A stretch of 60,581 nt of DNA, the filler included, from Nemertoderma westbladi (lineage: Eukaryota > Animalia > Xenacoelomorpha): NCBI GenBank assembly GCA_032718475.1. It is 3 parts of 3 records of this genome, joined end to end, with 100 filler letters (N's around TTAATTAATTAA, not from the genome) between each part and the next. Parts side by side here need not be neighbours in the genome. Positions count along the whole stretch, not along the records: positions 19,313 to 45,754 come from JAUCBJ010002575.1; 2 more parts are not named here. One strand, written 5' to 3'. Shown here piece after piece: positions 16,224 to 56,186 of the stretch; position 1 is the first letter of the stretch; every line of letters begins with the position of its first letter. Below the pieces are notes generated by a model. That model was not told where the DNA came from. It did not search any database and saw nothing but the letters and a program-made list of their open reading frames with translations. Made by a program: the position numbers and the translations under genes.

Positions 16224-16367
16224 GTAAGTAAATAACATTTAGTTATTTACAATAATAACCAAACATAACATTACTGTATAATACAATTTAATTTATCATT
16301 TAATTCGTCTGTATTATAATTTACTAAATGATCCCCGTAATATCAAACCTTTTCTTCGCGTTTTCAG

Positions 16368-16510
16368 TACCCGAAACCGATAACCAATGTTGTCACTTCA
16401 ACATGGGGGGAGAGATGCCGGAAAAAATCGCGAACGCCATGGTTAATGTGTTCGTTCGCGATAATAGCGGACCTGAAGATGTTAAAAGGGACCAAAAATA
16501 TGTATTAAAG
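16368..16510 (+). CDS. TGF-beta-like precursor, exon 3
   Basis: TTTTCAG acceptor; QCCHFNM..KIANAMVNVFVR (compare myostatin KCCFFKF..KVVKAQLWIYLR); donor AAG|GTAAAT, phase 0. Confidence 0.8.
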
Positions 16511-17417: not shown

Positions 17418-17532
17418 CTGTTTCTCAGAAATGGAACTAAAGTTGCAGAAGCTGTCTTCAACGTTCCTGAAATATCGGCGCCTGGAGCGGTTGCCAATTT
17501 CAACATGAACGCTACAAATTTCAAGCGTCAAA
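17418..17532 (+). CDS. TGF-beta-like precursor, exon 4
   Basis: TTGCAG acceptor; open frame LFLRNGTKVAEAVFNV..NFKRQ; donor A|GTAAGT; phases fit both neighbours. Confidence 0.75.
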
Positions 17533-17840
17533 GTAAGTGAAACCGCAGTCATTCTAAAAGTTCCATATTATTTTTCTAACTTGTCTCAAAAAGTTTCATG
17601 AGGTTTTCACATACCGCGAAGCAAGAACCACCAATAGGTGAAAATTCCCTCAAAGAGTGACCGAAGATTGATGGTACATATTACCTGTGATATTGGCAGT
17701 GTGATTAAATCCATACACAACATTTTTTACAGCATATTTAAGTGCTAAAGTATGTATTTCAATATAATTTCATATATTGTTTGTCTCTTATACAACATAT
17801 TTTTGTCGTCATCTATTAAATTATTTATTTTTTAATAAAG

Positions 17841-18019
17841 TTAAGAAATGGGGTAGTCTTAACCACGATAATTCCGGCATAATAGTTGACGTGCGTCTTG
17901 GGAGTGAATGTGCCACTGGGATCGATGGAGTACTGAGATGTAATGTAACAACCGGCCCAGACCTTACTGATTGCGGGCCAGAGTGGCCAGACCAACCAAG
18001 TTCTGGTCGCAATTGTTCG
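17841..18019 (+). CDS. TGF-beta-like precursor, exon 5 (gene incomplete)
   Basis: IKKWGSLNHDNSGIIVDV (compare LQNWLKQPESNLGIEIK); donor TCG|GTAAGT; no cystine-knot exon before the gap. Confidence 0.75.
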
Positions 18020-18420
18020 GTAAGTAATCAGTCCGACAGGTCATCAGTCTCATTTAACGTATAGTTGATTAAATTTAAATTATAATAAAGCTGAATAGAA
18101 TCTATTTACTTGACTACAATATTTAATACTGTAGTTGCTATTGAACTAGTTCGAAAATTAGTCTATTTATTTCCTAATTGTAAATATTAAACTTAATAAA
18201 TTCTCATCGCGTAGCGTAAGTTCTGTCTTCATCTCTTTAACTCAACAATTTATTCAGATTTGAAACTACACCGCGCGCATACAGTATTCTGATGGCGCTG
18301 TACTGTCATGGCATCTGCTAGGGTCAAAATCCTATATTTTACTCTTCAATATATTAATATTGCGAGTAATAATATCAATAATATTACATCATTGTGCAAT
18401 ATTATTACACGTTAATTCAA

Positions 18421-19212: not shown

Positions 19213-19312
19213 NNNNNNNNNNNNNNNNNNNNNNNNNNNNNNNNNNNNNNNNNNNNTTAATTAATTAANNNNNNNNNNNNNNNNNNNNNNNNNNNNNNNN
19301 NNNNNNNNNNNN
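19213..19312. other. Artificial 100-nt linker (N44-TTAATTAATTAA-N44)
   Basis: N-runs around a 12-mer giving stops in all six frames. Confidence 0.97.
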
Positions 19313-20529: not shown

Positions 20530-20895
20530 CTGAAAAATATTATATATTTACCAATATAATATATTATATACACCCCCAGTCGGGGTAAATGGGGGACGGG
20601 TTGTTAAAATTAATAAATTAAATAAATAATAAAATAAAAATCAATATTTACCAATATTTACCAATATAATATGTAATAAAATATAAATAGAATATTACCA
20701 TAAAATACATAGATAGCATGACATCACGTACGGTACCGATTATATATATATACTTAAACTTAATAATATTTGTACTATTTTTATGGAATTTCTTCGAATT
20801 TCCATGTAAATCTTTCTTTCTTGTCATCCATTCATACACTTTGTTCACACGTTTGATTTGCGCTGAAAAGTGATTGAGTGAATTAATATCCATAT

Positions 20896-29800: not shown

Positions 29801-32800
29801 TGACTCACCTTATACAATGCGCGGAGTTCCACGGTATAGTTGTCTACCAGTTGTGACTCACCCTATACAATGCGAGGAGTTCCGCGGTATAGTTGTCTAC
29901 CAGTTGTGACTCACCTTATACAATGCGCGGAGTTCCTCGGTATAGTTGTCTACCAGTTGTGACTCACCTTATACAATGCGCGGAGTTCCTCGGTATAGTT
30001 GTCTACCAGTTGTGACTCACCTTATACAATGCGCGGAGTTCCTCGGTATAGTTGTCTACCAGTTGTGACTCACCTTATACAATGCGCGGAGTTCCACGGT
30101 ATAGTTGTCTACCAGTTGTGACTCACCTTATACAATGCACGGAGTTCCACGGTATAGTTGTCTACTAGTTGTGACTCACCTTATACAATGCGCGGAGTTC
30201 CTCGGTATAGTTGTCTACCAGTTGTGACTCACCTTATACAATGCGCGGAGTTCCACGGTATAGTTGTCTACCAGTTGTGACTCACCTTATACAATGCGCG
30301 GAGTTCCTCGGTATAGTTGTCTACCAGTTGTGACTCACCTTATACAATGCGCGGAGTTCCTCGGTATAGTTGTCTACCAGTTGTGACTCACCTTATACAA
30401 TGCGCGGAGTTCCACGGTATAGTTGTCTACCAGTTGTGACTCACCTTATACAATGCACGGAGTTCCACGGTATAGTTGTCTACTAGTTGTGACTCACCTT
30501 ATACAATGCGCGGAGTTCCACGGTATAGTTGTCTACCAGTTGTGACTCACCTTATACAATGCGCGGAGTTCCACGGTATAGTTGTCTACCAGTTGTGACT
30601 CACCCTATACAATGCACGGAGTTCCTCGGTATAGTTGTCTACCAGTTGTGACTCACCTTATACAATGCGCGGAGTTCCACGGTATAGTTGTCTACCAGTT
30701 GTGACTCACCTTATACAATGCGCGGAGTTCCACGGTATAGTTGTCTACCAGTTGTGACTCACCCTATACAATGCACGGAGTTCCACGGTATAGTTGTCTA
30801 CCAGTTGTGACTCACCTTATACAATGCGCGGAGTTCCTCGGTATAGTTGTCTACCAGTTGTGACTCACCTTATACAATGCGCGGAGTTCCACGGTATAGT
30901 TGTCTACCAGTTGTGACTCACCTTATACAATGCACGGAGTTCCACGGTATAGTTGTCTACTAGTTGTGACTCACCTTATACAATGCGCGGAGTTCCACGG
31001 TATAGTTGTCTACCAGTTGTGACTCACCTTATACAATGCGCGGAGTTCCACGGTATAGTTGTCTACCAGTTGTGACTCACCTTATACAATGCGCGGACTT
31101 CCACGGTATAGTTGTCTACCAGTTGTGACTCACCTTATACAATGCGCGGAGTTCCACGGTATAGTTGTCTACCAGTTGTGACTCACCCTATACAATGCAC
31201 GGAGTTCCACGGTATAGTTGTCTACCAGTTGTGACTCACCTTATACAATGCGCGGAGTTCCACGGTATAGTTGTCTACCAGTTGTGACTCACCCTATACA
31301 ATGCGCGGAGTTCCACGGTATAGTTGTCTACCAGTTGTGACTCACCCTATACAATGCACGGAGTTCCACGGTATAGTTGTCTACCAGTTGTGACTCACCT
31401 TATACAATGCGCGGAGTTCCTCGGTATAGTTGTCTACCAGTTGTGACTCACCTTATACAATGCGCGGAGTTCCACGGTATAGTTGTCTACCAGTTGTGAC
31501 TCACCCTATACAATGCACGGAGTTCCACGGTATAGTTGTCTACCAGTTGTGACTCACCCTATACAATGCACGGAGTTCCACGGTATAGTTGTCTACCAGT
31601 TGTGACTCACCTTATACAATGCGCGGAGTTCCTCGGTATAGTTGTCTACCAGTTGTGACTCACCCTATACAATGCGCGGAGTTCCACGGTATAGTTGTCT
31701 ACCAGTTGTGACTCACCTTATACAATGCGCGGAGTTCCACGGTATAGTTGTCTACCAGTTGTGACTCACCCTATACAATGCGCGGAGTTCCACGGTATAG
31801 TTGTCTACCAGTTGTGACTCACCCTATACAATGCACGGAGTTCCACGGTATAGTTGTCTACCAGTTGTGACTCACCTTATACAATGCGCGGAGTTCCACG
31901 GTATAGTTGTCTACCAGTTGTGACTCACCCTATACAATGCGCGGAGTTCCACGGTATAGTTGTCTACCAGTTGTGACTCACCCTATACAATGCACGGAGT
32001 TCCACGGTATAGTTGTCTACCAGTTGTGACTCACCCTATACAATGCGCGGAGTTCCACGGTATAGTTGTCTACCAGTTGTGACTCACCCTATACAATGCA
32101 CGGAGTTCCACGGTATAGTTGTCTACCAGTTGTGACTCACCCTATACAATGCACGGAGTTCCACGGTATAGTTGTCTACCAGTTGTGACTCACCCTATAC
32201 AATGCACGGAGTTCCACGGTATAGTTGTCTACCAGTTGTGACTCACCTTATACAATGCGCGGAGTTCCTCGGTATAGTTGTCTACCAGTTGTGACTCACC
32301 CTATACAATGCGCGGAGTTCCACGGTATAGTTGTCTACCAGTTGTGACTCACCCTATACAATGCGCGGAGTTCCACGGTATAGTTGTCTACCAGTTGTGA
32401 CTCACCCTATACAATGCACGGAGTTCCACGGTATAGTTGTCTACCAGTTGTGACTCACCCTATACAATGCACGGAGTTCCACGGTATAGTTGTCTACCAG
32501 TTGTGACTCACCCTATACAATGCACGGAGTTCCACGGTATAGTTGTCTACCAGTTGTGACTCACCCTATACAATGCACGGAGTTCCACGGTCTAGTTGTC
32601 TACCAGTTGTGACTCACCCTATACAATGCACGGAGTTCCACGGTATAGTTGTCTACCAGTTGTGACTCACCTTATACAATGCGCGGAGTTCCTCGGTATA
32701 GTTGTCTACCAGTTGTGTCTCACCTTATACAATGCGCGGAGTTCCACGGTATAGTTGTCAACCAGTTGTGACTCACCCTATACAATGCGAGGAGTTCCGC

Positions 32801-33246
32801 GGTATAGTTGTCTACCAGTTGTGACTCACCTTATACAATGCACGGAGTTCCACTGTATAGTTGTCTACCAGTTGTGACTCACCTTATACAATGCGCGGAG
32901 TTCCACGGTATAGTTGTCTACCAGTTGTGACTCACCTTATACAATGCGCGGAGTTCCACGGTATAGTTGTCTACCAGTTGTGACTCACCCTATACAATGC
33001 ACGGAGTTCCACGGTATAGTTGTCTACCAGTTGTGACTCACCTTATACAATGCGCGGAGTTCCTCGGTATAGTTGTCTACCAGTTGTGACTCACCTTATA
33101 CAATGCGCGGAGTTCCACGGTATAGTTGTCTACCAGTTGTGACTCACCCTATACAATGCACGGAGTTCCACGGTATAGTTGTCTACCAGTTGTGACTCAC
33201 CTTATACAATGCGCGGAGTTCCACGGTATAGTTGTCTACCAGTTGT
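20896..33246 (-). repeat. 53-bp satellite, 233 copies, made of the exon-3 3' end plus its 5' splice site
   Basis: Minus-strand unit ACAACTGGTAGACAACTATACCGTGGAACTCCGCGCATTGTATAAG|GTGAGTC; 12351 bp = 233 x 53 plus two 1-nt insertions; the first copy is the end of exon 33349-33201. Confidence 0.97.
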
Positions 33247-33349
33247 TGGTAATATTCTTGAGATGCGATATCCATTCGCTCAGCTTCCTTTATGTTGACC
33301 TTGAGAGTGTCCATTATGTGAATAAGATCTTTGTATTTGGAAATGAGAA
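33201..33349 (-). CDS. Uncharacterised 328-aa protein, coding exon 3 (helical/coiled-coil-like)
   Basis: TTTTGCAG acceptor, phase 1; VLISKYKDLIHIMDTLKVNIKEAERMDIASQEYYQQLVDNYTVELRALYK; donor AAG|GTGAGT, phase 0, matching exon 4. Confidence 0.8.
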
Positions 33350-34611: not shown

Positions 34612-34783
34612 CTTTAGTTTCATGTTCAAATTCTATGCGAAAGAAGTGGCGTTTATAATTATTAGTAGTTTCCCAATACGCTCGATCCGAGGAAATCTGG
34701 TCCAAGGCGCAAGCGAGATCGCGCAGGACAGCGAGGAGTTTTGGATCGTTTGGGTAGCGGTCGTCTTGGATCAGGGATTCTAT
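34612..34783 (-). CDS. Uncharacterised 328-aa protein, coding exon 2
   Basis: TTTGCTGCAG acceptor, phase 0; IESLIQDDRY..EHETK; donor AAG|GTAATT, phase 1. Confidence 0.78.
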
Positions 34784-38384: not shown

Positions 38385-38542
38385 AACATCATTTCTTGTG
38401 AGAATAAATAGCCAACCAATAAATAAGCAAGGCCTTCTTTATAAATCAGTTTTACTTCAATCAGTTTAGTTAATAATTTATTAGTTTCTCAAGTCGTATT
38501 GTTATTTACTGCTTTATTAGAAGAAAGGACGCTGGACAAGAA

Positions 38543-38617
38543 ATGGCTGCGATATTTTCTCCTGCATCACCGGATGATATATTGTTTAACCGGAACGGAT
38601 GTACTAGTTGTTTGCAG
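38543..38617 (+). CDS. Uncharacterised plus-strand gene, first coding exon
   Basis: MAAIFSPASPDDILFNRNGCTSCLQ; strong donor CAG|GTAAGT, phase 0. Confidence 0.55.
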
Positions 38618-38699
38618 GTAAGTAAACAGGTTGGGCTGTGAATAAATAATATTTTTTTTAACGATTGATTTTTAAGGAATTAACATCCTAACTTCTGGG

Positions 38700-41381
38700 A
38701 GACTGGCTAAGAAGTTTCGTAAGGTGGTTCTGATTGTGTGCTACTCTCCAACTAGTGTTGCCCCTGTAGAGGAGGTGGAAAATTTCTAACAGAATCTACA
38801 ACTGATGGAGCTACTGATGGAGTGGATCAGCATGCATTCTTAACATTCCTGGGAGACTTTAATGCAAGTCTGCATCAATCACCTACATCGCCCTGGGTCT
38901 ATAGCAATAGTGTTAACCGAAATTCCGTCCATCTTCAGGATTTTATCTCTGGAAATGGATTGTTTTCGGCTGGAACCCAGTTCAAGAAGCGAACTGGAAA
39001 GCTATGGACTCATAGTGGACCCAGTGGTCACAAGTCCCAGATAGACCATATCCTGTTTCCTAGGAAATACAGGAGCTCCATACAAGACTGTAATGCATTT
39101 ACACTACGACCCTTCTCCAGTGATCACCGCCTTATTGTGGCCAAGGTAAGACTTAGTCTGCGTGCTAGCAGAACAACGAAATCTGCCTTGCCGCGGCATG
39201 ACTGGTCCTCTCTGTTGCAACAGCCAAGTGTGAGATCCAGCTTCACACTACAGCTGAGCAACAGGTATGAGGTTCTTGCCTCTGAGGCGGCAGATCACTG
39301 TGAGGGCTATACTGCCTTCACAGAGGCAGTTAAGTTAGCAGCTGCAGAAACAGTTCCTGTATACCCTCGAAACAGGAAACGGGCCCCCTGGACTGACAAC
39401 AAAATTCAGAAGTACCGAAATGACCTCTACAAGGCGCAGAAAGAGTCCCGACTCAAACAGACTACAGCGGCCAAGACTGCAGTTAAGGCTGCATCTAGGT
39501 CCCTGAACAGGCAGTACTCTGTTAATTTACAGGAGCTAATAAACCAACAGGTTGATGCCATCAATGATGCTGACGACAGCAGGCAATCATCCCAGGCATG
39601 GAGATTGATCAACTTGCTTGCTGGTCGAAAAAGCCAACCAACCACCAAGGTTAAGGCTGAATCACCAGCCGATCGCCTCAATGGTTGGAAGGCCCACTTT
39701 GAAAAGCTCCTAAAAAATGACAGGGTATTGCCTGATAACTTTATAGAAGTAAAAGTGTCTGAGTCTGTACTCCCAGATATTCCCATTGGTGATATCTCCT
39801 TTGCAGAAGTGAAGGCTGCTGCAAACAGCATTAAGACCAATCGTGCCAGTGGAGTAGATGGTGTTCCCCCTGAGGTCTTTAAAATACCTGAGTGTTTAAA
39901 GCTCATCTATCCCATCATAGTAGACATGTACCGAACAACAAGAGTCCCACAAGTGATGAAAACAAATAAGTTGGTGCCAGTTCCCAAGAAGGGCAACCTA
40001 ACACTCTATGGTTCTTTTCGGGGAATCTCATTGATCTCGATTGCTGCAAAGCTATACAATAGAATTCTATTAAATCGTATCAGGGATCTCATTGAGAGAC
40101 TACTCCGTGGAAATCAGAATGGGTTCCGTAAAGGTCGTGGGACCATGGAGCCCATTTTGGCACTTAGAAGGATAATTGAAGAGTTATCAAAAAAGAAAGA
40201 CAGGCATCTGGCTGTTATCTTTGTTGACTTCTTCAAAGCCTTTGATTCAGTCTCTCGCTCACGTATGTTCAGCATACTTTCATTATATTGGATTCCTTAT
40301 GAAATTATTGCAGCAATCAGATCAGTATACGATGGTTCGACAACATTTGTGTCTACTGTTGACGGTGACACAGAACCATTTGAAGTGTTATGGGGCGTCC
40401 TCCAGGGAGACACACTTGCACCATTCTTGTTCATAATTGTTGTTTTCTATGCTCTACGCATGTCCTTAGATCATCATAATGATAATGGGGTGATGATAAC
40501 TCCACCTACTGGCTCCAGAAGTCGAGGAAGTCCTGCCAAGTACCTAACTGATCTAGACTTTGCTGATGACTTAGGAGTACTCTCAGAATCACTAGAGGGA
40601 GCCCAACGGCTCCTCAGCTCATTAGAACATGCTGCTTCTAGTGTTGGTCTTTTTATTAACTCCAGATAGACCAAAATTTTGACAGTTAACTTTGAAAGTC
40701 CTCAGCAAGTCTCTGATCGGATGAGCATAAGCTCAAACGATGGTATGCTTGAGCATGTGGACGACTTCTGTTACCTGGGATCATGGATCCGGAAGTCAGG
40801 TGAGGACCTTCGAATACGTAAGGGAAAGGCATGGGCAGCCTTGAATAGGCTTTCCAGGATTTGGAAGTCACCGAGAATTAATCGGAAACTTAAGGTCCGA
40901 TTATTTAGAGCAGCAGTAGTTCCAGTACTCCTCTATGGGAGTCCATGCTGGGCTCTAACTGCTGAGGACACCAGATCTCTGGATGGCACATTCACAAGAA
41001 TGCTACGCCGGGTTCATTGTGTTAAGTACGATGCACACATCTCCAACCAGACACTATATAACATTGGAGGTGTCTCATTTGTTCCCCCAAGCTTGACACT
41101 AGAACAAGCTCGCCTCCGCTTTGCAGGACATTTGCTTTCGCCGCGAGGACCAGCCAGTGCATAATCTTGTACTTTGGCAGCCTCATGGAGTGAATAAGCA
41201 TGGTGGACAGCCCATGACTTTCTTGAGACGCATCTTAATGGACACTGGCCTTGAAGATGCGGATGATCTAGCAAATGTCATGGGTGATAGGGAGTTGTGG
41301 CGGTGCAATTTTGTCGATAAGCCGGCACAGCATTCTTAAAAATGCAGCTGCAATGCAGCATGCCGATCCTAGTAGTATTAG
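38700..41381 (+). mobile_element. LINE family B (APE endonuclease plus reverse transcriptase), 5'-truncated and mildly decayed
   Basis: CYSPT, GDFNA, SQIDHI, SDHRL, QNGFRKGR, FVDFFKAFDSV, GVLQGDTLAP, DFADDL; stop at 40667, frameshift near 41143; TAG-type tail; intronic. Confidence 0.95.
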
Positions 41382-41528
41382 TTACATAATTAGGTCCACC
41401 ATTGTGCTGTTTATTTTAAGTATGATGTACCTTTAATAACTACAGTAATAATAATAATAATAATAATTGCATTATACATGTAATATTTCGATGATTATAC
41501 TTTTCCATTCTAATTCGTTTTCCTTTAG

Positions 41529-41673
41529 GGAATAAATGATGTGAATCACCCATCGGTAAGATTAACTGAAACTCTAATTGAAATATTGAATCGTCTAGGG
41601 AAGGTAATAGGCGTATGTCGGGAGGAAATCAGAAGTAACATTGAATACCAGACTGATGGACCGGTGGTTAGAT
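41529..41673 (+). CDS. Uncharacterised plus-strand gene, second coding exon
   Basis: TTTTCCTTTAG acceptor; the only open frame (GINDVNHPSVRL..EYQTDGPVVR) is in phase with exon 1; donor AT|GTAAGT; a competing donor CG|GTAAGA exists at 41556. Confidence 0.55.
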
Positions 41674-44600
41674 GTAAGTATATGGAGGGGGGGACATTGA
41701 ATACCAGACTGATGGACCGGTGGTTAGATGTAAGTATATGGAGGGGGGAACACTGAATACCAGACTGATGGACCGGTGGTTAGATGTAAGTATATGGAGG
41801 GAGGGACATTGAATACCAGACTGATGGACCGGTGGTTAGATGTAAGTATATGGAGGGAGGGACATTGAATACCAGACTGATGGACCGGTGGTTAGATGTA
41901 AGTATATGGAGGGGGGACATTGAATACCAGACTGATGGACCGGTGGTTAGATGTAAGTATATGGAGGGGGGAACATTGAATACCAGACTGATGGACCGGT
42001 GGTTAGATGTAAGTATATGGAGGGGGGACATTGAATACCAGACTGATGGACCGGTGGTTAGATGTAAGTATATGGAGCGGGGAACATTGAATACCAGACT
42101 GACTGATGGACCGGTGGTTAGATGTAAGTATATGGAGGGGGGAACATTGAATACCAGACTGATGGACCGGTGGTTAGATGTAAGTATATGGAGGGGGGGA
42201 CATTGAATACCAGACTGATGGACCGGTGGTTAGATGTAAGTATATGGAGCGGGGAACATTGAATACCAGACTGATGGACCGGTGGTTAGATGTAAGTATA
42301 TGGAGGGGGGACATTGAATACCAGACTGACTGATGGACCGGTGGTTAGATGTAAGTATATGGAGCGGGGAACATTGAATACCAGACTGATGGACCGGTGG
42401 TTAGATGTAAGTATATGGAGGGGGGAACATTGAATACCAGACTGACTGATGGACCGGTGGTTAGATGTAAGTATATGGAGGGGGGAACATTGAATACCAG
42501 ACTGACTGATGGACCGGTGGTTAGATGTAAGTATATGGAGGGGGGAACATTGAATACCAGACTGACTGATGGACCGGTGGTTAGATGTAAGTATATGGAG
42601 GGGGGAACATTGAATACCAGACTGACTGATGGACCGGTGGTTAGATGTAAGTATATGGAGGGGGGAACATTGAATACCAGACTGATGGACCGGTGGTTAG
42701 ATGTAAGTATATGGAGGGGGGAACATTGAATACCAGACTGACTGATGGACCGGTGGTTAGATGTAAGTATATGGAGGGGGGAACATTGAATACCAGACTG
42801 ATGGACCGGTGGTTAGATGTAAGTATATGGAGGGGGGGACATTGAATACCAGACTGACTGATGGACCGGTGGTTAGATGTAAGTATATGGAGGGGGAACA
42901 TTGAATACCAGACTGATGGACCGGTGGTTAGATGTAAGTATATGGAGGGGGGAACATTGAATACCAGACTGACTGATGGACCGGTGGTTAGATGTAAGTA
43001 TATGGAGGGGGGAACATTGAATACCAGACTGACTGATGGACCGGTGGTTAGATGTAAGTATATGGAGGGGGGAACATTGAATACCAGACTGATGATGGAC
43101 CGGTGGTTAGATGTAAGTATATGGAGGGGGGAACATTGAATACCAGACTGACTGATGGACCGGTGGTTAGATGTAAGTATATGGAGGGGGGAACATTGAA
43201 TACCAGACTGACTGATGGACCGGTGGTTAGATGTAAGTATATGGAGGGGGGAACATTGAATACCAGACTGACTGATGGACCGGTGGTTAGATGTAAGTAT
43301 ATGGAGGGGGGAACATTGAATACCAGACTGATGGACCGGTGGTTAGATGTAAGTATATGGAGGGGGGAACATTGAATACCAGACTGACTGATGGACCGGT
43401 GGTTAGATGTAAGTATATGGAGGGGGGACATTGAATACCAGACTGACTGATGACCGGTGGTTAGATGTAAGTATATGGAGGGGGAACACTGAATACCAGA
43501 CTGATGGACCGGTGGTTAGATGTAAGTATATGGAGGGGGGAACATTGAATACCAGACTGATGGACCGGTGGTTAGATGTAAGTATATGGAGGGGGGAACA
43601 TTGAATACCAGACTGATGGACCGGTGGTTAGATGTAAGTATATGGAGGGGGGAACACTGAATACCAGACTGATGGACCGGTGGTTAGATGTAAGTATATG
43701 GAGGGGGGACATTGAATACCAGACTGACTGATGGACCGGTGGTTAGATGTAAGTATATGGAGGGGGGACATTGAATACCAGACTGATGGACCGGTGGTTA
43801 GATGTAAGTATATGGAGGGGGGAACATTGAATACCAGACTGATGGACCGGTGGTTAGATGTAAGTATATGGAGGGGGGAACATTGAATACCAGACTGATG
43901 GACCGGTGGTTAGATGTAAGTATATGGAGGGGGGAACACTGAATACCAGACTGATGGACCGGTGGTTAGATGTAAGTATATGGAGGGGGGACATTGAATA
44001 CCAGACTGATGGACCGGTGGTTAGATGTAAGTATATGGAGGGGGGACATTGAATACCAGACTGATGGACCGGTGGTTAGATGTAAGTATATGGAGGGAGG
44101 GACATTGAATACCAGACTGATGGACCGGTGGTTAGATGTAAGTATATGGAGGGGGGACATTGAATACCAGACTGATGGACCGGTGGTTAGATGTAAGTAT
44201 ATGGAGCGGGGGACATTGAATACCAGACTGATGGACCGGTGGTTAGATGTAAGTATATGGAGGGGGGGACATTGAATACCAGACTGATGGACCGGTGGTT
44301 AGATGTAAGTATATGGAGCGGGGGACACTGAATACCAGACTGATGGACCGGTGGTTAGATGTAAGTATATGGAGGGGGGAACATTGAATACCAGACTGAT
44401 GGACCGGTGGTTAGATGTAAGTATATGGAGCGGGGAACATTGAATACCAGACTGATGGACCGGTGGTTAGATGTAAGTATATGGAGGGGGGAACATTGAA
44501 TACCAGACTGATGGACCGGTGGTTAGATGTAAGTATATGGAGCGGGGAACATTGAATACCAGACTGACTGATGGACCGGTGGTTAGATGTAAGTATATGG

Positions 44601-45754
44601 AGGGGGGAACATTGAATACCAGACTGACTGATGGACCGGTGGTTAGATGTAAGTATATGGAGGGGGGAACATTGAATACCAGACTGACTGATGGACCGGT
44701 GGTTAGATGTAAGTATATGGAGGGGGGAACATTGAATACCAGACTGATGTGACCGGTGGTTAGATGTAAGTATATGGAGGGGGGAACATTGAATACCAGA
44801 CTGACTGATGGACCGGTGGTTAGATGTAAGTATATGGAGGGGGGAACATTGAATACCAGACTGATGGACCGGTGGTTAGATGTAAGTATATGGAGGGGGG
44901 AACATTGAATACCAGACTGACTGATGGACCGGTGGTTAGATGTAAGTATATGGAGGGGGGAACATTGAATACCAGACTGATGGACCGGTGGTTAGATGTA
45001 AGTATATGGAGGGGGGGACATGTGGACCGGTGGTTAGATGTAAGTATATGGAGGGGGGAACATTGAATACCATGACTGATGGACCGGTGGTTAGATGTAA
45101 GTATATGGAGGGGGAACATTGAATACCAGACTGATGGACCGGTGGTTAGATGTAAGTATATGGAGGGGGGACATTGAATACCATGACTGATGGACCGGTG
45201 GTTAGATGTAAGTATATGGAGGGGGGAACATTGAATACCAGACTGACTGATGGACCGGTGGTTAGATGTAAGTATATGGAGCGGGGAACATTGAATACCA
45301 GACTGATGGACCGGTGGTTAGATGTAAGTATATGGAGGGGGGACATTGAATACCAGACTGACTGATGGACCAGTGCGGTGGTTAGATGTAAGTATATGGA
45401 GGGGGGAACATTGAATACCAGACTGACTGATGGACCGGTGGTTAGATGTAAGTATATGGAGGGGGGAACATTGAATACCAGACTGAATGATGGACCGGTG
45501 GTTAGATGTAAGTATATGGAGGGGGGAACATTGAATACCAGACTGACTGATGGACCGGTGGTTAGATGTAAGTATATGGAGGGGGGAACATTGAATACCA
45601 GACTGACTGATGGACCGGTGGTTAGATGTAAGTATATGGAGGGGGGAACATTGAATACCAGACTGATGGACCGGTGGTTAGATGTAAGTATATGGAGGGG
45701 GGGGGGGGGGGGGGGGGGGGCACTGAATACCAGACTGATGGACCGGTGGTTAGA
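41638..45754 (+). repeat. 55-60-bp satellite, about 70 copies, made of the exon 3' end plus 5' splice site
   Basis: Unit ACATTGAATACCAGACT(GACT)GATGGACCGGTGGTTAGAT|GTAAGTATATGGAGGGGGGA; the first copy is continuous with unique exon sequence; runs into the gap. Confidence 0.95.
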
Positions 45755-45854
45755 NNNNNNNNNNNNNNNNNNNNNNNNNNNNNNNNNNNNNNNNNNNNTT
45801 AATTAATTAANNNNNNNNNNNNNNNNNNNNNNNNNNNNNNNNNNNNNNNNNNNN
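45755..45854. other. Artificial 100-nt linker (N44-TTAATTAATTAA-N44)
   Basis: Identical in design to 19213-19312. Confidence 0.97.
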
Positions 45855-46048
45855 ACTTATTATTATTAACTAACAGCCTGGGCCAGGCATACGGGGCTAC
45901 AGTGGTTTCTACAACACTGTATAACAGTTATTCTTTGAGGCATGGTTGCCATTTCTGGCAGAGCACGGGAATAACGAAAGTTGTACTTTACTTTGAGTGA
46001 TTGTATGGCCTTAATATGATCTCCCACTCCATAGCGAAATATTCATCC

Positions 46049-46135
46049 GGTCTTGTAGCTCAGTAGACTCACCCGGCTGATGATAACCAGAAGTTTGAAA
46101 CCTAGGTACCGGGTTCGAGCCCCAATAGGGCCGGT
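46049..46135 (+). mobile_element. Degenerate tRNA-derived SINE-like head
   Basis: GTAGCTCAGT (A-box start) ... GGGTTCGAGCCCC (B box); the spacing does not give a cloverleaf. Confidence 0.4.
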
Positions 46136-47625
46136 TGATATTTTTCGCTATGGAGAGCATTATCATATTGTCCTCTGGGGGGAAGCTCGGAGAGTGATAT
46201 GGGTCTGGATGGAGCGGTTTTCCGGCAAATATAGCAAGGGAGTAAGGAGAATTATGAAAGACATCAAACATTAGATAGAAAGAAGACTTGAAACTTATGC
46301 AAACTATGGAGTGGAAGGACGTTTAGTTATAGAAACGCAAAGAAGATAATCTGCGGTGACTAAATGTAATGCAACGGTTGTGAAGATGCCTAAGAATTGT
46401 AGTGTAGTGTAGGTGCTAAGAATTTCGAACACCCCCCCCCCCCCCCCCCCCCCCCCCACCCTTCTCCCGAGAGGGCTAGTTTATTTATATGCTTATATAA
46501 TATTTCTTAATTTAAATGTAATGCAATATACTAGTTAGCATAATATGCTGAGAATCAACCAGCATTACAAACAGTGCATATTGATTTGATGTAGAGAAAC
46601 CCCGCTGATAATCTCTCAATGTATATCCCCATTCAACATGAAGGAGGAGCTGCAATATTACTACAGAAAACGTAATGAACTTCGATTTGAAGTTTCTTAA
46701 TGTAATTTCCCAACCACCGGCATTAAAGACGGGGAGCTTCAGCGTTGAGTATATATATTTAGGTGTAATCGTTGTAATAGTGCTAATATGTAGCGACAAT
46801 GTATATACATGTAAGAAAAATCAATAGAGTAGGATTCTGTGCTTATCACACATGTTTAATGTGTTGTATTCATTTAGTCAGGCTGCATTAGCGTCACACA
46901 TTCCCTTTCCCTCACCTAATATTGGGAGCAAAATTATTCGTTTGGGCTGAAAATTTGTACGCTATATTATATTTAGGATTGTAGTTTTGTTGTTACATAT
47001 TTACGTGTATGTTTATAATTCATGTATAATAATTATTGTATAAATTGAAGTAGAAGCTTGAAAATCCAATAATAAAGAGTTAATTGTATTTTATTTATTA
47101 ATCAAGCACGTCGAGTAAAAACCTTACCGGTAGGTATGTCAGTACCAAAGTATGTAAAAAACTAAAAAGCAACAAGACCTAGACGTTGCATGCAATCAGT
47201 GATCAGCTGACGGCAGGCAGCTGATCGGTAGGTTTCGTCGCCCCACAATAAAATACAATTAACTCTTAATTATTGTATACTATTTTCTAACATTAGTGTC
47301 ATTATTCGATTTGTTTGCTCCTATTTCAATGTTACAAGGATATGAAAATCCCTGGCATCACACCTACTATGGAGGTAAATTTATTTTGGGCGGCAGTCGA
47401 GCCTATGTTGCTATATGGCAGTCACTGCTAGTCTCTGTGACCCTTGGTGGTATGTACATTACATACGCAAGGACACAACGCAGGGATCATGATTTAATAT
47501 ACATTTGCAATGCTTTGTACCATATTGGTAGTGATCAAGCGCCACCCTGCAGGCACTAGGGGTGGCGTATTCCCAATCCTTTTGTATATACTACTGTATT
47601 TATTATATTACATAAAATAAAGTAA

Positions 47626-48712
47626 TTTTTTTTTTATTGTCACCCCGAGCGGGGTAGTTTTATTTAATTAACCATTAGTAGTATATAGAGTGTAATTTAA
47701 AATACGGAATTAAAATAATTTAAAATATAATAGGTAAAAATAATACTAAAAGGGAAGAATCCGAAGACAGAACTAGAGGCTTCCTAGAAGGGATAGGTGA
47801 GGGCAACTCGCACATCTAATAGCATGGAGCCGGTTGGAAGCAGGACCCCCGCAGTAGATACAGGTGCAGGCATCCCTAAGTTCGTGAAAGGGGGTTTTAT
47901 TTCGGCATATTTTCCAATGGCAACCATGGACAGTTAACTCGAATTATGAGGTGTCGATTCTTTTGGCCGGGAGAGCGCCACTGTGATGTTGTAAATGCAG
48001 GGCCTTTGGAATAATTTTCTGCAACAAATAAGCTTTCTTTTGTCTGGCGTTGTAGTCGATATTGTTCTAGAACAGTAGGTTCAAACATTGAAGGATAACG
48101 CAGTGACAAATCTTCTATGTATGTGTTCGTTGGAATCATTTTCAGGGCCACGGTGGAAGAGGCATTTTTTGGCAAACCAAGAAGACGTTTCACATAAGTT
48201 GATTTGATGATATAAATTTGTTTTAAGGTTCGCGAGAGTAAAGAATTTGGCGATCTCTGTGAAGACATAATTAACCATAGGGTCTATTTTCATTTGGAAG
48301 ATAGTTAGACCAGTGTTAACAGAAACATGGTGAAGATTTTTTAGACATCCTATGGCTGAGAAAGCTTTCCTTTTCTTCTGGTTTATGTGTCGTGAGAACG
48401 ATAACGATGGTTGTAGGGTGACCCCTAGGTACTCGTATTCATTGCATAACGGTACTTGGACGCCGTTGTAGTAGAATACATCTGCCCTGGATGTTCGACC
48501 GCCTTTCCTAAATTTAATTATTTTGGTTTTCCCCATATTTAATTCCATCGAGTTTTTAATGGACCATTTGTAGAGTTCGTTTAGTGCGTTTTGGATATCA
48601 CTGTTCTTTAGCGGGTATATAACTAGGTCGTCAGCAAAAAATATGAATCTTATGGTAGAAGCAATTTGTTGGAGAACTTGTGCCAGGTCCGCAATAAACA
48701 TCAGGAAGCAAA
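47626..48712 (-). mobile_element. LINE family C, 3' fragment (RT C-terminus)
   Basis: FIADL, IFFADDLVI, LNMGKTKIIKFRKGG, YEYLGV; frameshifts; ends in a stem-loop plus AATAAAAAAAAA. Confidence 0.85.
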
Positions 48713-48868
48713 TAAAGTAATAAAAATAAGATAGAAGTATTAAAATAAAGTAATAGGAATGCATTTTAAACAACCATGTTCAGCATGATCCGGTCTCTTG
48801 AATATAATCTTGTGTTGATTTTGTGTATATTTTTGACAGACCAATATCAAGCAATTAAAATAAAGGAC

Positions 48869-48978
48869 TATTCTGTCCGCGTGGTTGAATTTTATATGAG
48901 TTGGCAGGTTTTTAGCACGAGCGAAGCGAGTGTTAAAATGCCAATGAGTAGAAAACTCAACCCACGAGGGCAGAATAT
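48869..48978. mobile_element. Short palindromic MITE-like repeat
   Basis: TATTCTGTCC.CGTGG.TTGA / TCAACCCACGAGGGCAGAATA arms around ACGAGCGAAGCGAGTG. Confidence 0.6.
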
Positions 48979-49124
48979 CTGAATTTCGTTAATGAAAATT
49001 AGTGGAAAATAGTGTTTTACTTTACGTTTTTATATCGAATATATTGTTTTATTTTTACGACCTATAATATTACTATATTTTAATACAGAATCTCAAATAA
49101 ATATATAACTAGCTTTTCAGTAAG

Positions 49125-51762
49125 CTACTACTACTAGGTCGAGCGAACTCGGGCAGTGGAAATGAGATCCTTCCAGGCTTCCCGATTCTCCATAGTTGTC
49201 GCAATTTCGTTTCTCCCAAGTTCAGTATCCCTTTCAAGTTGATCTATATATGTTATGACCGGTCGTCCACGACTACGCTTTCCATGAGTTGGTTGCCAGA
49301 AAAGTAGATCTGGTATGACCTCGTCTTTACTTCGCCAGCAGTGCCCACTGAATCTTAATCTGCGTTCACGGAGGGTGGTTGATACAGGCGGTATTGTACC
49401 ATAAAGCTCGGCGTTTGTCATGTGTTGACTCCAGCTGATGTTTAGGGCTGCCCTTAAAGGCTACCATCAATTCGTTGTTCAAGTGATTTAGTCAGTGTCC
49501 AGGTCTCACCCCAGTAAAAAAATACACTTTCCACTGTGGCTCGGAAGAACTTAGTCTTCAGGTGCCTGGAGAGATCTGATTTCCAGATGGTATCAATTTT
49601 TGATAGAGCTACCCAAGCCTTTGCTTTCCTAACTTCTATGTCCTTTTTGCTACTCTCTATCCATGATCCAAGGTACTGGATGACGTCGACCTTCCTTAGT
49701 TGATTATTATCAATGGTTGTCAAGTTTCCATCAACATTAAAGGTCACGAATTCGGTCTTGGTAGCATTTATATACAATCCAACCTCCTTATCAGCCCTCT
49801 CCACTTTATTTAGTAGAAGCTGTGCATTTGCTGGCATATTAGAGAGCAGGGTGATGTCATCCGCAAAGTCGGTGTCTGTGACTGTAGTTGCCGGATATCT
49901 ACTACTTCTGCGTTCTTGAAGTGTGAATCCCAGATCTTCACACTTTGTGGCCGTCCTCATTGCGTAATCGAGCACAATTACAAATAGTAATGGTGCTAAT
50001 GTTTCACCATGCAGTACGCCAGCCAGGATTGAGAAAAACTCAGTTTCACCATCTGGTGAGACTACCTGCGCTTCTGTGTAACAATATAACAATCCAATGC
50101 CAGCAACAATTACTTCTGGTATTCCATAAGTTCTTAGGATTTCAAGCATTTTACCTCTATGGATGGAGTCGAATGCCTTCTTGAAGTCCACAAAAGTCAT
50201 GACTGCGGGGAGATTCTTTGACTTAATTCCTTCAATCAGTCTCCGTAGTGCAAATATCTGAGCTATTGTTGATCTACTTGGTCGAAATCCGTTTTGGTTC
50301 TTACGCAGTAGTTTCTCTATGTGAGGCCTAATCCTATACAGAATCATTTTATTGTATATTTTGGCAGCTACCACAAGCAGACAGATCCCACGATAGTTTG
50401 TTGGTATGCCGAGGTATCCTTTCTTGGGGAGAGGCTTTAGTTGACCTTTAGTTCAAATTGGTGGTGGCTTTTCCCCATTTAACATCCGGTTCCAAACATT
50501 CAATAATGGTCTGTTGAGCACTCCGGTTTTCCATACCTCCGCTGGGATTTCATCTAATCCATTTGCTTTATTATTGGACATGCTTTTAATGCTTCTTTGG
50601 AGTTCGGCAGGTGTGAAGTCCCCTGTTTCTATAGGTAGTGTCTTGTCATATATTTTCTTTGTAGGGCTGACCTCGATGTTTGGTGGCTGCCCAAGCAAGT
50701 TGCTGAAGTGATTTTACCACTTCCCAACACGTTCTTCAGGACTATCGCCTTTGAGTCGCCCCTTTGCACGACTTTTCCAACCAGATACCTCATTTACAGT
50801 TTGCCAGGTAAGTCTTGATTGTTGCTGTATGTGAGCAGTTGTAATTGCTTCAATTTTACCCTGTATGTACTTTTCCTGGCTGATGTTGTAGGCCAATTTA
50901 AGATCGTCCTTAGCTTTCTCAACCTTGTTACTGTTTTCGGTTGTTGGTTGTTTGGTTTTAACTTTGTAGGCTGTCTTAAGATCTTCTCTCTTACAAGTAA
51001 CCTCAGAGTTTTGCCATGCACATACTGTTTTCGTTTGGGTTTCTGGGCGATATGCCTCTTAGCTGATTCCTTGTGGGCTGATATTATATTCTGATATATT
51101 GAATCTTCATCCATTGACTGAAGTGCTTCAAAGCGGTTATGAATTTCTACTGTGTAAGCATCCTTTGCAGCATTGTCAGTTCTGAGTTCTGAGTTTCTCC
51201 CAGTCATAGTTGATTTGCTTGCTTGTCCTGGGTTTGCTGGCTCTCTGCTTAGGGTGAACGAGCTGTATGCCTCGCAGTTGATCATGCTGTTTCTCCACTT
51301 TTTGTTTATAAGGATGTAATCCAGTTGTGCTTTGGTTCCATTAGGGTATTGAAAGGTCCATAGCTTCCCCTTACTCTTTTCGAATGTGTTGTTTGTTGGT
51401 ATCAATTCAAATTCTTCCATTCGGTCTAAAAGTAATTACCCATTTCTGTTAGAACTGGTGTTATAGGTGTAACCCTTGATGTCTTCTGGGCCAATTTGCG
51501 CATTCAGGTCACCAGCAATGAGTTTAACATTGTATTTCGGAGTGTCCTTTATAAGTCCAGTCAGATCTTCATAAAATATCACTGCTTGTTCTGGCTCTGA
51601 GGCATTGGTTGGACTGTAGCAACATATAACTGTTGCCTTGGGATTCCCATCAAATGTTGCGATCATAACCCTGGAATTTATAGATTCGATGTTGTTTAGG
51701 GTCTTAAGTGCAAATGGGCTTAGCAGAATTCCTACTCCACCAATTGATGCATTGACCGAGCT
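49125..51762 (-). mobile_element. LINE family A, longest copy (APE endonuclease plus RT, RTE-like), frameshifted
   Basis: CYSPTN, AGDLNAQ, QLDYIL, QNGFR, FVDFKKAFDSI, DFADDI; (TAG)n tail with essentially no 3' UTR; clade assignment is inference. Confidence 0.95.
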
Positions 51763-54198
51763 GTGGAGCTTGTTAAGTCACCCGACAAGTAAGCTACATT
51801 ATAATCATTATGTACCAGGAACTTACAAATTATATGAAAGTATGTATCAATTTCATTATATTGTGTAGTAAATAGTTCATTCAAAAAGTAAAAAATAGTT
51901 TAAAAAAGAAAAAAATTAGTTAAAAAACTAAAAATTAGTTAACAAAAGTCAAAATTAGTTTAAAAAAAGTATGTTAAAAAAAGTAAAAAAATTGTTTAAA
52001 AAGGGCTTTTTTTAACTAATTTTCTGGAAATTAGTGAAAAAAGTTAGATTAATCAACTCAATTTTAAAATTATTAGTGAGAAAAAGAGCCTTTTTCAAGT
52101 AAATAATTTTTTTTATATACGACATTTCGAGTCAGCGTGTTCCTTATTATAATGAATATATATATATAACAAGGAGAAAACAACCACGTTTTCACGAACG
52201 GAGATGAATGTAAAGTACATCAAAAACACATGACATAAAAATAAGAGTTTAAGAATATAGAAACAAATCACTGTTCAAAATATCATTAACAATGTGAAAA
52301 TATTTAATTGCCAGAATTTGTTAAAGCAGAAAATATACGTTTTTTACTTATTTGACCAATTCGAGTAAACATAACTAACTTTATTATTGGTTGACAGCAT
52401 CGTCTGGAAGCCCACACTAATTTTAACATTCGGTATTTTTGCACAATTTCAGTTTATCGGTTATAAATTCAGGGTCCAATTTAGATAAAATCTTTGGTGG
52501 GGTTAGAAGAACATGGAATTTTTCCGAGTAAAATATTTTTTTACCGATCAAATATTGGTCAGATTTGAATGATTGCCATTACCAATTAATAGGAAGTACT
52601 CTTACAAATTTTATCACATGTGAAGAAAACGATATTTCGAGGTGATATATATAAAAATCATGGGATTTTAGAGAATAGTTTGTCAATGGAAATTGCATTT
52701 TTCGAATTGCAATATGTAAAATGTATGTTCCTATAAGTGCAGTGAGAAAGGGCCTTAATTAATAATTTAATTAATAATAATAATTTATTTACACAACGGT
52801 ATTTACAACAATAAAAATTGAGAGCAGGGTGATTGGTTGTTGTTATTGAGGTTGAAAGGCCAGTCAGCGGCAACAATTTATTTTAGAAATTTTTGTTACA
52901 ATATGATATTCAACAGTGGGCATATTAGCACTTCCACCAATATTGTTTAAAAATTAACATTCAAACAATACATTGAATAGTTACTCTTAAAAGACGAGCC
53001 TTAGTAGTTAGTATTTCATTGATAGATCCGGGATTTATAGACATTTATAGCACGACAGTTAGGAAAAGTCCAGATTGGCAACAAGAAAATTGCACACATC
53101 ATTTGCGATTTTTGGGTCCTAAACAAAAGACACAATTCAAAACTCGATATTACGCGAGTATTAAATATCATAAATTCGAAGCTTAATGCGATAGTAAGCT
53201 AGATTAAAATTTTTTATTATTTGCTATAAACAATTTTAGATAATAACATTCTTAAATGTCTCAAACTCCAAGAAAATGTTTGAAATAAAAGCCTTTCTGA
53301 GAGAAAGTAAGTGATCAGAACCATAACCATATAGCAATATATCTTGACGCCATTCATTCAATAACAACCATTATTTGAGCTCGAAATTAGAATAAATTAA
53401 ACATTTAATTAAAAACTTATATTTTTAACTTAACACCATAGCTTTCACTTGTACATGGAGCAAATATCATTTTTAGTCCAGTAACACTAAAAGTTCACTT
53501 GTTATATTAAAACAGTATGTCCTGTGTGTGATCTCACAATGTTGAATTGTTACAAATGTGACAGAAGTTAAAATATTTTTCTGTGAGAGTACCTGTAGTA
53601 TATAGATGACAAAAATGCAATGCTTAAAAAAATTCGACCAATGGAAGTATTGAAACTTTGTAACAATTTTTTCTTTCCTTGGCAACATGAATCTTACATA
53701 GCAACAAGGTAACTAACTAACTATGGGTAACTAACTACTGGGATTTAACCCACTTTTAGTGCAGACAATACTTAGTCCAATGAATATCGATTGAGTGAAA
53801 TATAGGCTTCTACATAGATGCACAAAGAATATATTAGTTAACAAATAGAAAGCCATTCCTCTCCACGTGATACATAACATTGTGTTAAAATTATTTGTCA
53901 AAGAAGTACAGTATAAACACATAATTAATTTATTAATTACTGTAGTTATAGAATTTTATTTATGGTAAAGTAGTAATATATATATGGGAATAAATGTAAA
54001 TAAAAAATTATAAGTTATGATTTATTAATTACTACAATTTATTATTAATATAACATTGCGAATCATATTCAGTATTATTGTAATTGTAATATTGAATTTG
54101 TAAACATATCCTCCATACCGTGGCGCATAACGAAACTCTAACTGGTGCCACTTAAGTCCCATTTGGCGGTCGCCATATCGTAGTAAAGAGAGGCGACA

Positions 54199-54270
54199 AT
54201 GAACTACTTCAAACACTTCTTCTGTCTGGCGTTGCGACCTGCATGTATTATCATTTCACTCTACACCATT
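54199..54270 (+). CDS. LAPTM/DUF4728-like multi-pass membrane protein, exon 1
   Basis: MNYFKHFFCLALRPACIIISLYTI (compare CxxLRxGxIII); donor TT|GTAAGT, phase 0. Confidence 0.68.
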
Positions 54271-55055: not shown

Positions 55056-55251
55056 GTAAAGTAAAAAAAAAATTAAACATAAAAGTAGTCTACCAAAATT
55101 AATAATAATATTAATTAATTATATTTAATTTGATTGTCATGAAACGTGACAGGCGATGAAAGCAAGGTAGCACATAGTATAATATAACATGAATGGAAGA
55201 AGATTGAAAACAGAAGGGAGGAGAACATTGAAATAAATGAAAGAAATGGAG

Positions 55252-56186
55252 TAAAGTACCTCAGAAACAAAGAGTTCTCTGGTATCCTCCAACTAAAGTA
55301 CCTCAGAAACAAAGAGTTCTCTGGTATCCTCCAACTAAAGTACCTCAGAAACAAAGAGTTCTCTGGTATCCTCCAACTAAAGTACCTCAGAAACAAAGAG
55401 TTCTCTGGTATCCTCCAACTAAAGTACCTCAGAAACAAAGAGTTCTCTGGTATCCTCCAACTAAAGTACCTCAGAAACAAAGAGTTCTCTGGTATCCTCC
55501 AACTAAAGTACCTCAGAAACAAAGAGTTCTCTGGTATCCTCCAACTAAAGTACCTCAGAAACAAAGAGTTCTCTGGTATCCTCCAACTAAAGTACCTCAG
55601 AAACAAAGAGTTCTCTGGTATCCTCCAACTAAAGTACCTCAGAAACAAAGAGTTCTCTGGTATCCTCCAACTAAAGTACCTCAGAAACAAAGAGTTCTCT
55701 GGTATCCTCCAACTAAAGTACCTCAGAAACAAAGAGTTCTCTGGTATCCTCCAACTAAAGTACCTCAGAAACAAAGAGTTCTCTGGTATCCTCCAACTAA
55801 AGTACCTCAGAAACAAAGAGTTCTCTGGTATCCTCCAACTAAAGTACCTCAGAAACAAAGAGTTCTCTGGTATCCTCCAACTAAAGTACCTCAGAAACAA
55901 AGAGTTCTCTGGTATCCTCCAACTAAAGTACCTCAGAAACAAAGAGTTCTCTGGTATCCTCCAACTAAAGTACCTCAGAAACAAAGAGTTCTCTGGTATC
56001 CTCCAACTAAAGTACCTCAGAAACAAAGAGTTCTCTGGTATCCTCCAACTAAAGTACCTCAGAAACAAAGAGTTCTCTGGTATCATCCAACTAAAGTACC
56101 TCAGAAACAAAGAGTTATCTGGTATCATCCAACTAAAGTACCTCAGAAACAAAGAGTTCTCTGGTATCCTCCAACTAAAGTACCTC
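55252..56186. repeat. Near-perfect 42-bp intronic minisatellite, about 22.3 copies
   Basis: TAAAGTACCTCAGAAACAAAGAGTTCTCTGGTATCCTCCAAC; 935 bp = 22 x 42 + 11; variants only near the right end. Confidence 0.97.

What the first reader, a model, noticed from the sequence alone, without database searches (positions are those of the whole stretch)
41638..45754. Second, unrelated satellite also made of exon end plus GTAAGT donor
Seen: the unit is about 36 nt of putative exon end, AT|GTAAGT and about 14 nt of G-rich intron start, in about 70 copies in the sense orientation. It has no sequence similarity to the 53-bp array. Donor 2 shifts the frame (+56 nt) and later donors include the TGA at 41754. 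Inference: an independent occurrence of the same phenomenon.
Basis: partly seen in the sequence, partly recalled or inferred. Interest (0 to 1): 0.82.

Follow-up and report, generated by a model that had tools for sequence, protein, structure and literature searches.

The report
Repeated splice donor in cilium gene
A 56-base stretch holding the end of a likely exon and the splice signal after it is repeated 71 times in a row in a gene resembling that of a sea-urchin sperm-tail protein; cells likely use only the first signal, as in known human and lancelet genes, so this is a large but ordinary example of a known kind of repeat.

Summary
Observation confirmed. The array (41638-45754) has 71 intact GAT|GTAAGTAT sites plus one unit cut by an assembly gap. 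It is unrelated to the 53-bp array, and the frame claims hold. New here: the 48 residues before donor 41674 match sea-urchin RIB35, an axonemal microtubule inner protein (PDB 8snb_6Q, E 1.6e-4, 16 of 40 identical, ungapped). All 16 identities lie past the rival donor 41556, and 7 lie inside the repeat unit. The match stops at 41673. The GTAAGT is therefore very likely the real donor, not incidental. No RNA was available, and exon 3 was not found after the gap. The structure is a known kind: human F7, CBS, IFI6, LMNB2 and PDGF minisatellites and amphioxus 'mirages', where the first donor, or the first few, are used (PMC1557585, PMC3087553). Every later donor here shifts the frame or includes a stop. 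This scan noted the same kind before on other DNA (21 notes, at least 13 genomes, unchecked). What stands out is the size, and a second such array in the neighbouring gene.

The parts
38543..38617 (+). Likely first coding exon of the RIB35-like gene: ATG, 25 open codons, phase-0 donor CAG|GTAAGT at 38618
   Evidence: It has the best-scoring donor of those tested (8.8). Its length would put exon 2 within one residue of where RIB35 aligns. No homology hit of its own.
38693..41470 (+). Non-LTR retroelement (endonuclease plus reverse transcriptase, frameshifted, short TAA-repeat tail) inside intron 1
   Evidence: Pfam RVT_1 E 1.4e-23 and Exo_endo_phos E 0.015. Contigs of run X1 follow it and leave the locus at 38693 and 41378.
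41500..41528 (+). Splice acceptor of exon 2 (13 of 16 pyrimidines, AG at 41527-41528)
41529..41673 (+). Likely exon 2 (145 nt, phase 0 to phase 1); encodes 48 residues like RIB35 27-74
   Evidence: No stop in frame against 9 and 7 in the other frames. PDB 8snb_6Q E 1.6e-4.
41556..41561 (+).
   Evidence: Score 3.3 against 3.6 for the repeated donor. All 16 RIB35 identities lie downstream of it.
41604..41609 (+).
   Evidence: Score 2.3. 9 of the 16 identities lie downstream.
41674..41681 (+). First copy of the donor GAT|GTAAGTAT; inferred authentic 5' splice site
   Evidence: Homology ends here. The leftover T fits the Phe at RIB35 position 75.
41638..45754 (+). Minisatellite: 36 nt exon end + GTAAGT + 14 nt G-rich intron start; 71 intact donors plus one cut unit; 56- and 60-nt variants interspersed
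41754..41756 (+). TGA that closes the exon-2 frame in the third unit; included by donor 3 onward
45755..45854 (.). Assembly gap with a 12-nt linker; hides the array's right end and probably the rest of the gene
   Evidence: The same structure occurs at 19213-19312. No RIB35 match in the three + frames of 45855-54199 (positive control).

Best explanation
A 56-base unit made of the last 36 bases of a likely coding exon of a RIB35-like axonemal gene and the first 20 bases of the next intron stands in tandem, giving 71 identical splice donors, and it likely arose from one local duplication that then expanded, with the spliceosome likely using the first donor so that the protein would be unchanged. 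Shown: the unit anatomy, the intact donors, the homology running up to donor 1, and the frameshift or stop that any later donor brings. Inferred: (1) one tandem duplication across the boundary left the first exon end and donor intact and put every extra copy into the intron, so selection on the protein did not see it; (2) slippage and unequal exchange expanded and homogenised the array, with a few variants recurring in mixed order; (3) the most upstream of identical donors is chosen, as shown for human F7; (4) rare use of later donors would give unproductive RNA, probably removed by nonsense-mediated decay.
For: RIB35 match: E 1.6e-4 among 177,635 sequences, 16 of 40 identical, no gaps, 7 of 12 identical inside the repeated exon part. 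With the 75-residue read-through frame the alignment needs a gap right after the donor and ends 4 residues later; the next RIB35 residue is Phe, which fits the phase-1 T. 73 residues precede the donor against 74 in RIB35. The exon is found again inside a 2781-residue read-through frame (E 0.017; the same match, not independent). A strong acceptor and an in-phase upstream exon are present. A GT site with the same T|GTAAGTAT reading ends the likely first exon of the DUF4728 gene at 54271. Only about 9% of GC-matched non-coding 117-nt frames are open (742 of 7955). F7 uses only the first of identical donors and ignores exonic cryptic sites (PMC1557585). Amphioxus mirages do not disturb splicing (PMC3087553; PMC3902484).
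Against: There is no RNA junction. Orthology rests on one 40-residue match to one protein; about 20 short-query searches were made in all, so the corrected significance is nearer 0.003 (my estimate). Exon 1 gave no PDB hit. Exon 2 gave no Pfam hit, no hit among 5 candidates, and only an unrelated repeat protein among 1.84 billion. Coding-potential tests are weak. Plain log-odds for 41556-41672 is not significant (0.15-0.26). The frame contrast gives 0.11 and 0.31 with order 1, and 0.013 and 0.070 with order 2, on overlapping null windows. The exon holds two cryptic donors scoring 2.2 or more, whereas 0 such sites occur in 2211 positions of the window's other coding stretches. In IFI6 and CBS two further donors are also used, so exclusive use of the first is not a rule. 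Exon 3 and the array's right end are missing.
Confidence: 0.8

Rival explanations
1. The array is a copy-number-dependent damper: with 70 decoy donors behind a donor that is weak on its exon side, a real share of transcripts splices from later copies into frameshifted or stop-containing RNA, so array length tunes RIB35-like protein level.
For: All 71 donors are intact. The donor has T at -1 and a middling score of 3.6. Human IFI6 and CBS use two pseudo-donors besides the first (PMC1557585 introduction).
Against: Intact donors are expected at this low divergence: substitutions occur at only 4 of 56 positions. F7 pseudo-sites do not compete even when strengthened. In the neighbouring 53-bp array 64 of 229 GTGAGT donors carry a weaker AGG exon end, as drift would give.
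Confidence: 0.08
2. The gene is dead or the array has disabled it: the RIB35-like exons are relics, the donor is no longer used, and the array is free satellite DNA.
For: No downstream exon was found. A retroelement sits in intron 1.
Against: Both exons are open and in phase with intact splice signals. The contig ends inside the array at an artificial gap, which explains the missing exons.
Confidence: 0.06
3. The exon ends at 41555 or 41603, and the array is an ordinary intronic G-rich minisatellite whose GTAAGT is incidental.
For: The rival donors score 3.3 and 2.3 against 3.6. Donor-like sites occur in about 5% of 56-nt stretches. The G-rich array at 3923-4904 repeats AAG|GTATGG 29 times behind a stop codon, apparently by chance.
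Against: All 16 RIB35 identities lie past 41556, 9 lie past 41604 and 7 lie in the repeat unit. Both rivals are phase 0 and would cut the conserved stretch. The 108 nt before the array are not a decayed unit (p 0.36).
Confidence: 0.04
4. The copy number is largely an assembly artefact of a much shorter duplication.
For: The array ends at a gap, with a long G run (about 28 bases) and singleton indels near the end.
Against: There are 22 distinct unit sequences among 70, with shared substitutions recurring 3 to 10 times in mixed order (runs test p 0.29).
Confidence: 0.02

Closest known systems
Human F7 intron 7 37-bp minisatellite, and the IFI6 (6-16), CBS, LMNB2 and PDGF cases listed with it (Borensztajn et al. 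2006, PMC1557585; seen: abstract, outline, passages, section 11)
   Same: The first unit spans an exon/intron boundary, the donor is reiterated unchanged into the intron, and cryptic donors also lie inside the exon.
   Different: At least 71 donors here, against 5-9 (F7), 26 (IFI6), 15-20 (CBS), 10-15 (LMNB2) and 16-18 (PDGF). The unit is mostly exon (36 of 56 nt, against 4 of 37 in F7). It is probably an invertebrate gene. Donor use and length polymorphism are untested here.
Amphioxus 'mirages' (Adh3, globins BflGb6 and BflGb9, troponin C, PGBD5; PMC3087553 and PMC3902484, passages seen; the original Adh3 paper PMC117041 was not held)
   Same: Minisatellite-like tandem duplications of an exon/intron boundary, with units of 10-160 bp, several cases in one genome, and normal splicing reported.
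   Different: There are far more copies here than the 3-6 given for BflGb6. Two unrelated arrays (at least 71 and about 230 donors) sit in adjacent head-to-head genes.
Sea-urchin RIB35 (PDB 8snb_6Q, 310 aa; LOC578017, A0A7M7THB5, A-tubule inner protein in the table of PMC11834534, two passages seen)
   Same: 40% identity over 40 residues, ungapped, at the matching distance from the N-terminus.
   Different: Only 73 of about 310 residues are visible and exon 1 shows no hit, so orthology is likely, not proven.

Membership tests
Exon/intron-boundary minisatellite (F7-type VNTR, amphioxus mirage) | Head-to-tail array of a 10-160-bp unit | tested here: met
   Period 56, 71 copies
Exon/intron-boundary minisatellite (F7-type VNTR, amphioxus mirage) | First unit overlaps the end of a real exon and contains its donor | tested here: met
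   Met by homology and splice signals, not by RNA
Exon/intron-boundary minisatellite (F7-type VNTR, amphioxus mirage) | Donor sequence reiterated in the following units | tested here: met
   71 of 71 complete sites intact
Exon/intron-boundary minisatellite (F7-type VNTR, amphioxus mirage) | Last unit runs out into unique intron sequence | not testable with these tools
   The right end is lost in the gap. It is seen for the 53-bp array, last donor at 20902.
Exon/intron-boundary minisatellite (F7-type VNTR, amphioxus mirage) | Mature mRNA uses the first donor (or the first few) | not testable with these tools
   No RNA holder listed
Exon/intron-boundary minisatellite (F7-type VNTR, amphioxus mirage) | Copy number varies between alleles or cells | not testable with these tools
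   One assembly, no reads over the array
RIB35 axonemal microtubule inner protein | Sequence similarity to sea-urchin RIB35 | tested here: met
   E 1.6e-4, best of 12 rows, next best E 0.89
RIB35 axonemal microtubule inner protein | Similarity over the whole protein and reciprocal best match | tested here: inconclusive
   Exon 1 no hit, later exons absent, no genome held
Tandem exon duplication / exonisable cassette | Each unit has its own acceptor and donor | tested here: not met
   Three of the unit's four AGs have 5-7 of 16 pyrimidines upstream and the fourth has 7, against 13 for the real acceptor
Dispersed satellite family shared with the 53-bp array | Sequence similarity to other arrays or copies elsewhere | tested here: not met
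   No match to the 53-, 42- or 61-bp units (p 0.09-0.88) and no further copy in the window. The genome-wide test was not possible.

The most novel reading that the evidence does not exclude
In this animal lineage, 5' splice sites are hot spots for the birth and runaway growth of minisatellites through a transcription- or splicing-coupled mutational process, so that a sizeable part of intron length is amplified exon-end-plus-donor DNA. Two unrelated arrays of at least 71 and about 230 donors in adjacent head-to-head genes would be the extreme of a genome-wide bias, and a natural test bed for how a spliceosome picks one donor among hundreds of identical ones.
Probability: 0.15. Interest if true: 0.6.

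Novelty: new member of a known kind. Interest (0 to 1): 0.22.

Why it matters
As it stands this is an ordinary but large example of a known oddity. It has 71 or more identical donors against 5-26 in the human cases I read about, so it would be a strong natural test of the first-donor (scanning) rule outside mammals. It also marks a likely RIB35 gene in an animal that the protein searches did not recognise. It would matter more if a genome-wide count showed that minisatellites here start at donors far more often than chance. In this window 2 of 4 longer arrays do (naive p about 0.001), but the window was picked for it, the donor count is my estimate, and one of the two exons has no homolog.

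Tried and rejected
No whole genome is held, so the genome-wide search for the unit could not be run. No RNA holder was listed. The one run returned (X1, share 0.17) covers only the retroelement and short repeats at 90% and 80% likeness, with no cover of the exons or of either array start; this is no evidence on expression. The unit has 0 exact matches in metagenome contigs. 596 pattern hits for exon 2 gave no tblastn relative. Protein searches for exon 2 found no relative, and the single representative hit P0001 (E 1.4e-4) is an unrelated 871-aa repeat protein and was rejected. The Atlas gave nothing above 0.80. The same word-based search also missed the window's MRPL10, which PDB finds at E 5e-6, so these blanks say little. 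A search for exon 3 by acceptor scan and by three read-through + frames of 45855-54199 found nothing; the rest of the window was covered by the acceptor scan only. Rejected: a decayed extra unit upstream of 41638, exonisation of units, and polar or clustered order of the 60-nt variant. A G-rich sense strand as a general cause is not supported: skew is +0.52 here but +0.06 in the 53-bp array. The host gene of the 53-bp array was not identified. Paper searches for a genome-wide survey of such arrays returned nothing (one search gave 3 unrelated-looking titles). The terms were narrow and subscription journals are missing, so this does not show that none is in print. Three primary papers were not held. 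No structure or complex prediction was run.

Full report
Observation. One anchor finds 71 GT donors (41674 to 45684). An independent anchor finds 72 units, 71 with an intact GAT|GTAAGTAT and one cut by the gap at 45755. Among the 70 complete units there are 22 distinct sequences: 30 of 56 nt, 23 of 60 nt, 9 of 55 nt and 8 of other lengths. Variation is a 4-nt GACT duplication (26 of 70), G-run length, and substitutions at 4 positions, each recurring 3 to 10 times in mixed order (runs test p 0.29). Identity between the first and second copies extends 36 nt upstream of the first GT, so the unit is 36 nt + GTAAGT + 14 nt. The unit is unrelated to the 53-, 42- and 61-bp arrays (p 0.09-0.88), has no other copy in the window, and the 108 nt upstream of it are not a decayed copy.

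Is the donor real? An acceptor with 13 of 16 pyrimidines ends at 41528. Upstream, across a 2.9-kb intron filled by a retroelement (Pfam RVT_1), lies an ATG exon of 25 codons with a near-perfect phase-0 donor at 38618. Three donors could end the second exon: 41556 (score 3.3), 41604 (2.3) and 41674 (3.6), scored with a recalled generic matrix, not a species model. Sequence statistics alone do not decide. The frame is open to 41672 while the other two frames have 9 and 7 stops, and 742 of 7955 GC-matched non-coding frames of that length are open. Markov coding scores trained on 2.3 kb of the window's other exons were not significant in plain form and only partly so as a frame contrast (0.013 and 0.070 at order 2; 0.11 and 0.31 at order 1). 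Against the long exon, no other coding stretch in the window holds such a cryptic site (0 in 2211 positions).

Homology decides it. The 48 residues of 41529-41672 match PDB chain 8snb_6Q, named RIB35 (310 aa), at E 1.6e-4; the next of 12 rows is at E 0.89. Query 9-48 aligns to chain 35-74 without gaps, and I count 16 identities in the printed match line. All 16 lie downstream of 41556, 9 downstream of 41604, and 7 within the 12 residues encoded by the repeated part. With the 75-residue read-through frame the alignment needs a gap immediately after the donor and ends at chain 76. Chain residue 75 is Phe, and the exon leaves a single T, as a split Phe codon would. The two exons give 73 residues before the donor, against 74 in RIB35. 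A review table lists RIB35 (LOC578017, A0A7M7THB5, 310 aa) as an A-tubule protein with a 48-nm repeat (PMC11834534, two passages). That 8SNB is the sea-urchin sperm doublet microtubule is my recollection; the primary paper was not held. Limits: it is one short match to one protein; exon 1 gave no hit; Pfam and the large protein searches gave nothing real, though the word-based one also missed the window's MRPL10.

The rest of the gene. An acceptor scan and three read-through + frames of 45855-54199 show no further RIB35 exon, while the same method recovers exon 2 at E 0.017. The next recognisable + strand gene, a DUF4728-family gene, appears to start on its own at about 54200. Exon 3 and the right end of the array are therefore in the gap or on another contig. 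No RNA evidence could be had.

How it most likely works. Shown: exon end and donor are reiterated, and every later donor is unproductive. Inferred: a single tandem duplication across the boundary leaves the first exon end and donor intact and places all copies in the intron, so the coding sequence is untouched. Slippage and unequal exchange (general knowledge of minisatellites) then expand and homogenise the array. In human F7, only the most upstream of several identical functional donors is used, and exonic cryptic donors are skipped even when strengthened (PMC1557585: abstract, passages and section 11). That is the same geometry as here, including the cryptic sites in the exon. In IFI6 and CBS two more donors are also used, so some leak to donors 2 and 3 is plausible; here it would give a frameshift or a stop, and probably decay. 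There is no length 'dial': 27 of 71 donors are in phase 1, but all except the first lie behind the TGA.

Comparison with what is known. It works like, and by the three features I could test is a member of, the boundary-spanning minisatellites known from human F7, IFI6, CBS, LMNB2 and PDGF and the amphioxus 'mirages' of Adh3, globins, troponin C and PGBD5, which are reported not to disturb splicing (PMC3087553 and PMC3902484, passages). Donor use, polymorphism and the right boundary were not testable. Earlier notes of this scan describe the same kind in at least 13 other genomes, one with about 56 donors and RNA said to use the first; I did not check these. I had found the F7 paper before that look-up; the lead to the amphioxus paper came from it.

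'Independent occurrence'. The 53-bp array starts 45 nt inside a 149-nt minus-strand exon-like stretch (33201-33349), repeats AAG|GTGAGTCA or AGG|GTGAGTCA 229 times, and runs out into unique sequence after the last donor at 20902. Its exon has good splice signals and an open frame but no homolog (its upstream exon also none). Two of the four arrays with period over 40 and at least 7 copies thus start just before a donor. A naive calculation gives p about 0.001, but it is after the fact and uses my estimate of 13 donors. The G-rich array at 3923-4904 shows that donor-like motifs can also recur in repeats with no sign of an exon end. My searches found no genome-wide survey of the question, in a library that lacks most subscription journals; no supplements were consulted.

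Verdict. Observation confirmed; interpretation supported and now backed by homology; new member of a known kind; interest 0.22. The open point is whether donors are preferred birth sites for such arrays in this lineage.

Noticed in passing
window 20895-33246 (- strand gene; exon-like stretches 33201-33349, 34612-34783, and one ending at the donor 35026): The 53-bp array is 45 nt exon end + 8 nt intron, with both boundaries visible. Of 229 GTGAGT donors, 165 have AAG and 64 the weaker AGG before the GT, including the second copy; donor 2 already includes a stop. Host gene unidentified.
   Followed up: partly
window 3923-4904: Degenerate G-rich 17-18-bp array 40 nt behind a stop codon, with 29 AAG|GTATGG and 6 GAG|GTATGG donor-like sites on the + strand. 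The exon before it (3632-3883) looks like a HERPUD C-terminus (recalled label, no Pfam hit).
   Followed up: partly
window 865-1629 (-): Intronless, divergent MRPL10 gene (PDB mitoribosomal uL10m E 5e-6), missed by the word-based protein search.
   Followed up: partly
window 16040-18020 (+): Four exon-like stretches that read like a TGF-beta-family propeptide (recalled resemblance; no Pfam hit for the two frames tested), with no last exon before the gap at 19213.
   Followed up: no
window 19213-19312 and 45755-45854: Both gaps have the same 44 N + 12-nt linker + 44 N form, and genes are cut at both, so the flanking contigs may not be true neighbours.
   Followed up: no
window 55252-56186: A 42-bp x 22 array, 99% identical, lies in an intron of the DUF4728 gene about 200 nt behind the donor at 55056 and holds no donor-like site: a counter-example to 'all arrays start at donors'.
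   Followed up: partly
window 10221-10676: A 61-bp x 7 array whose unit contains an acceptor-like pyrimidine tract and AG; no flanking exon was identified.
   Followed up: no
window 38693-41378: Run X1 holds this retroelement at about 97-98% identity and high depth but no unique DNA of the locus: a recently active element shared with a related sample or species.
   Followed up: no
window 38505-38542: An acceptor-like site ends at 38520, 22 nt before the ATG at 38543, so the first coding exon may be preceded by an untranslated exon.
   Followed up: no
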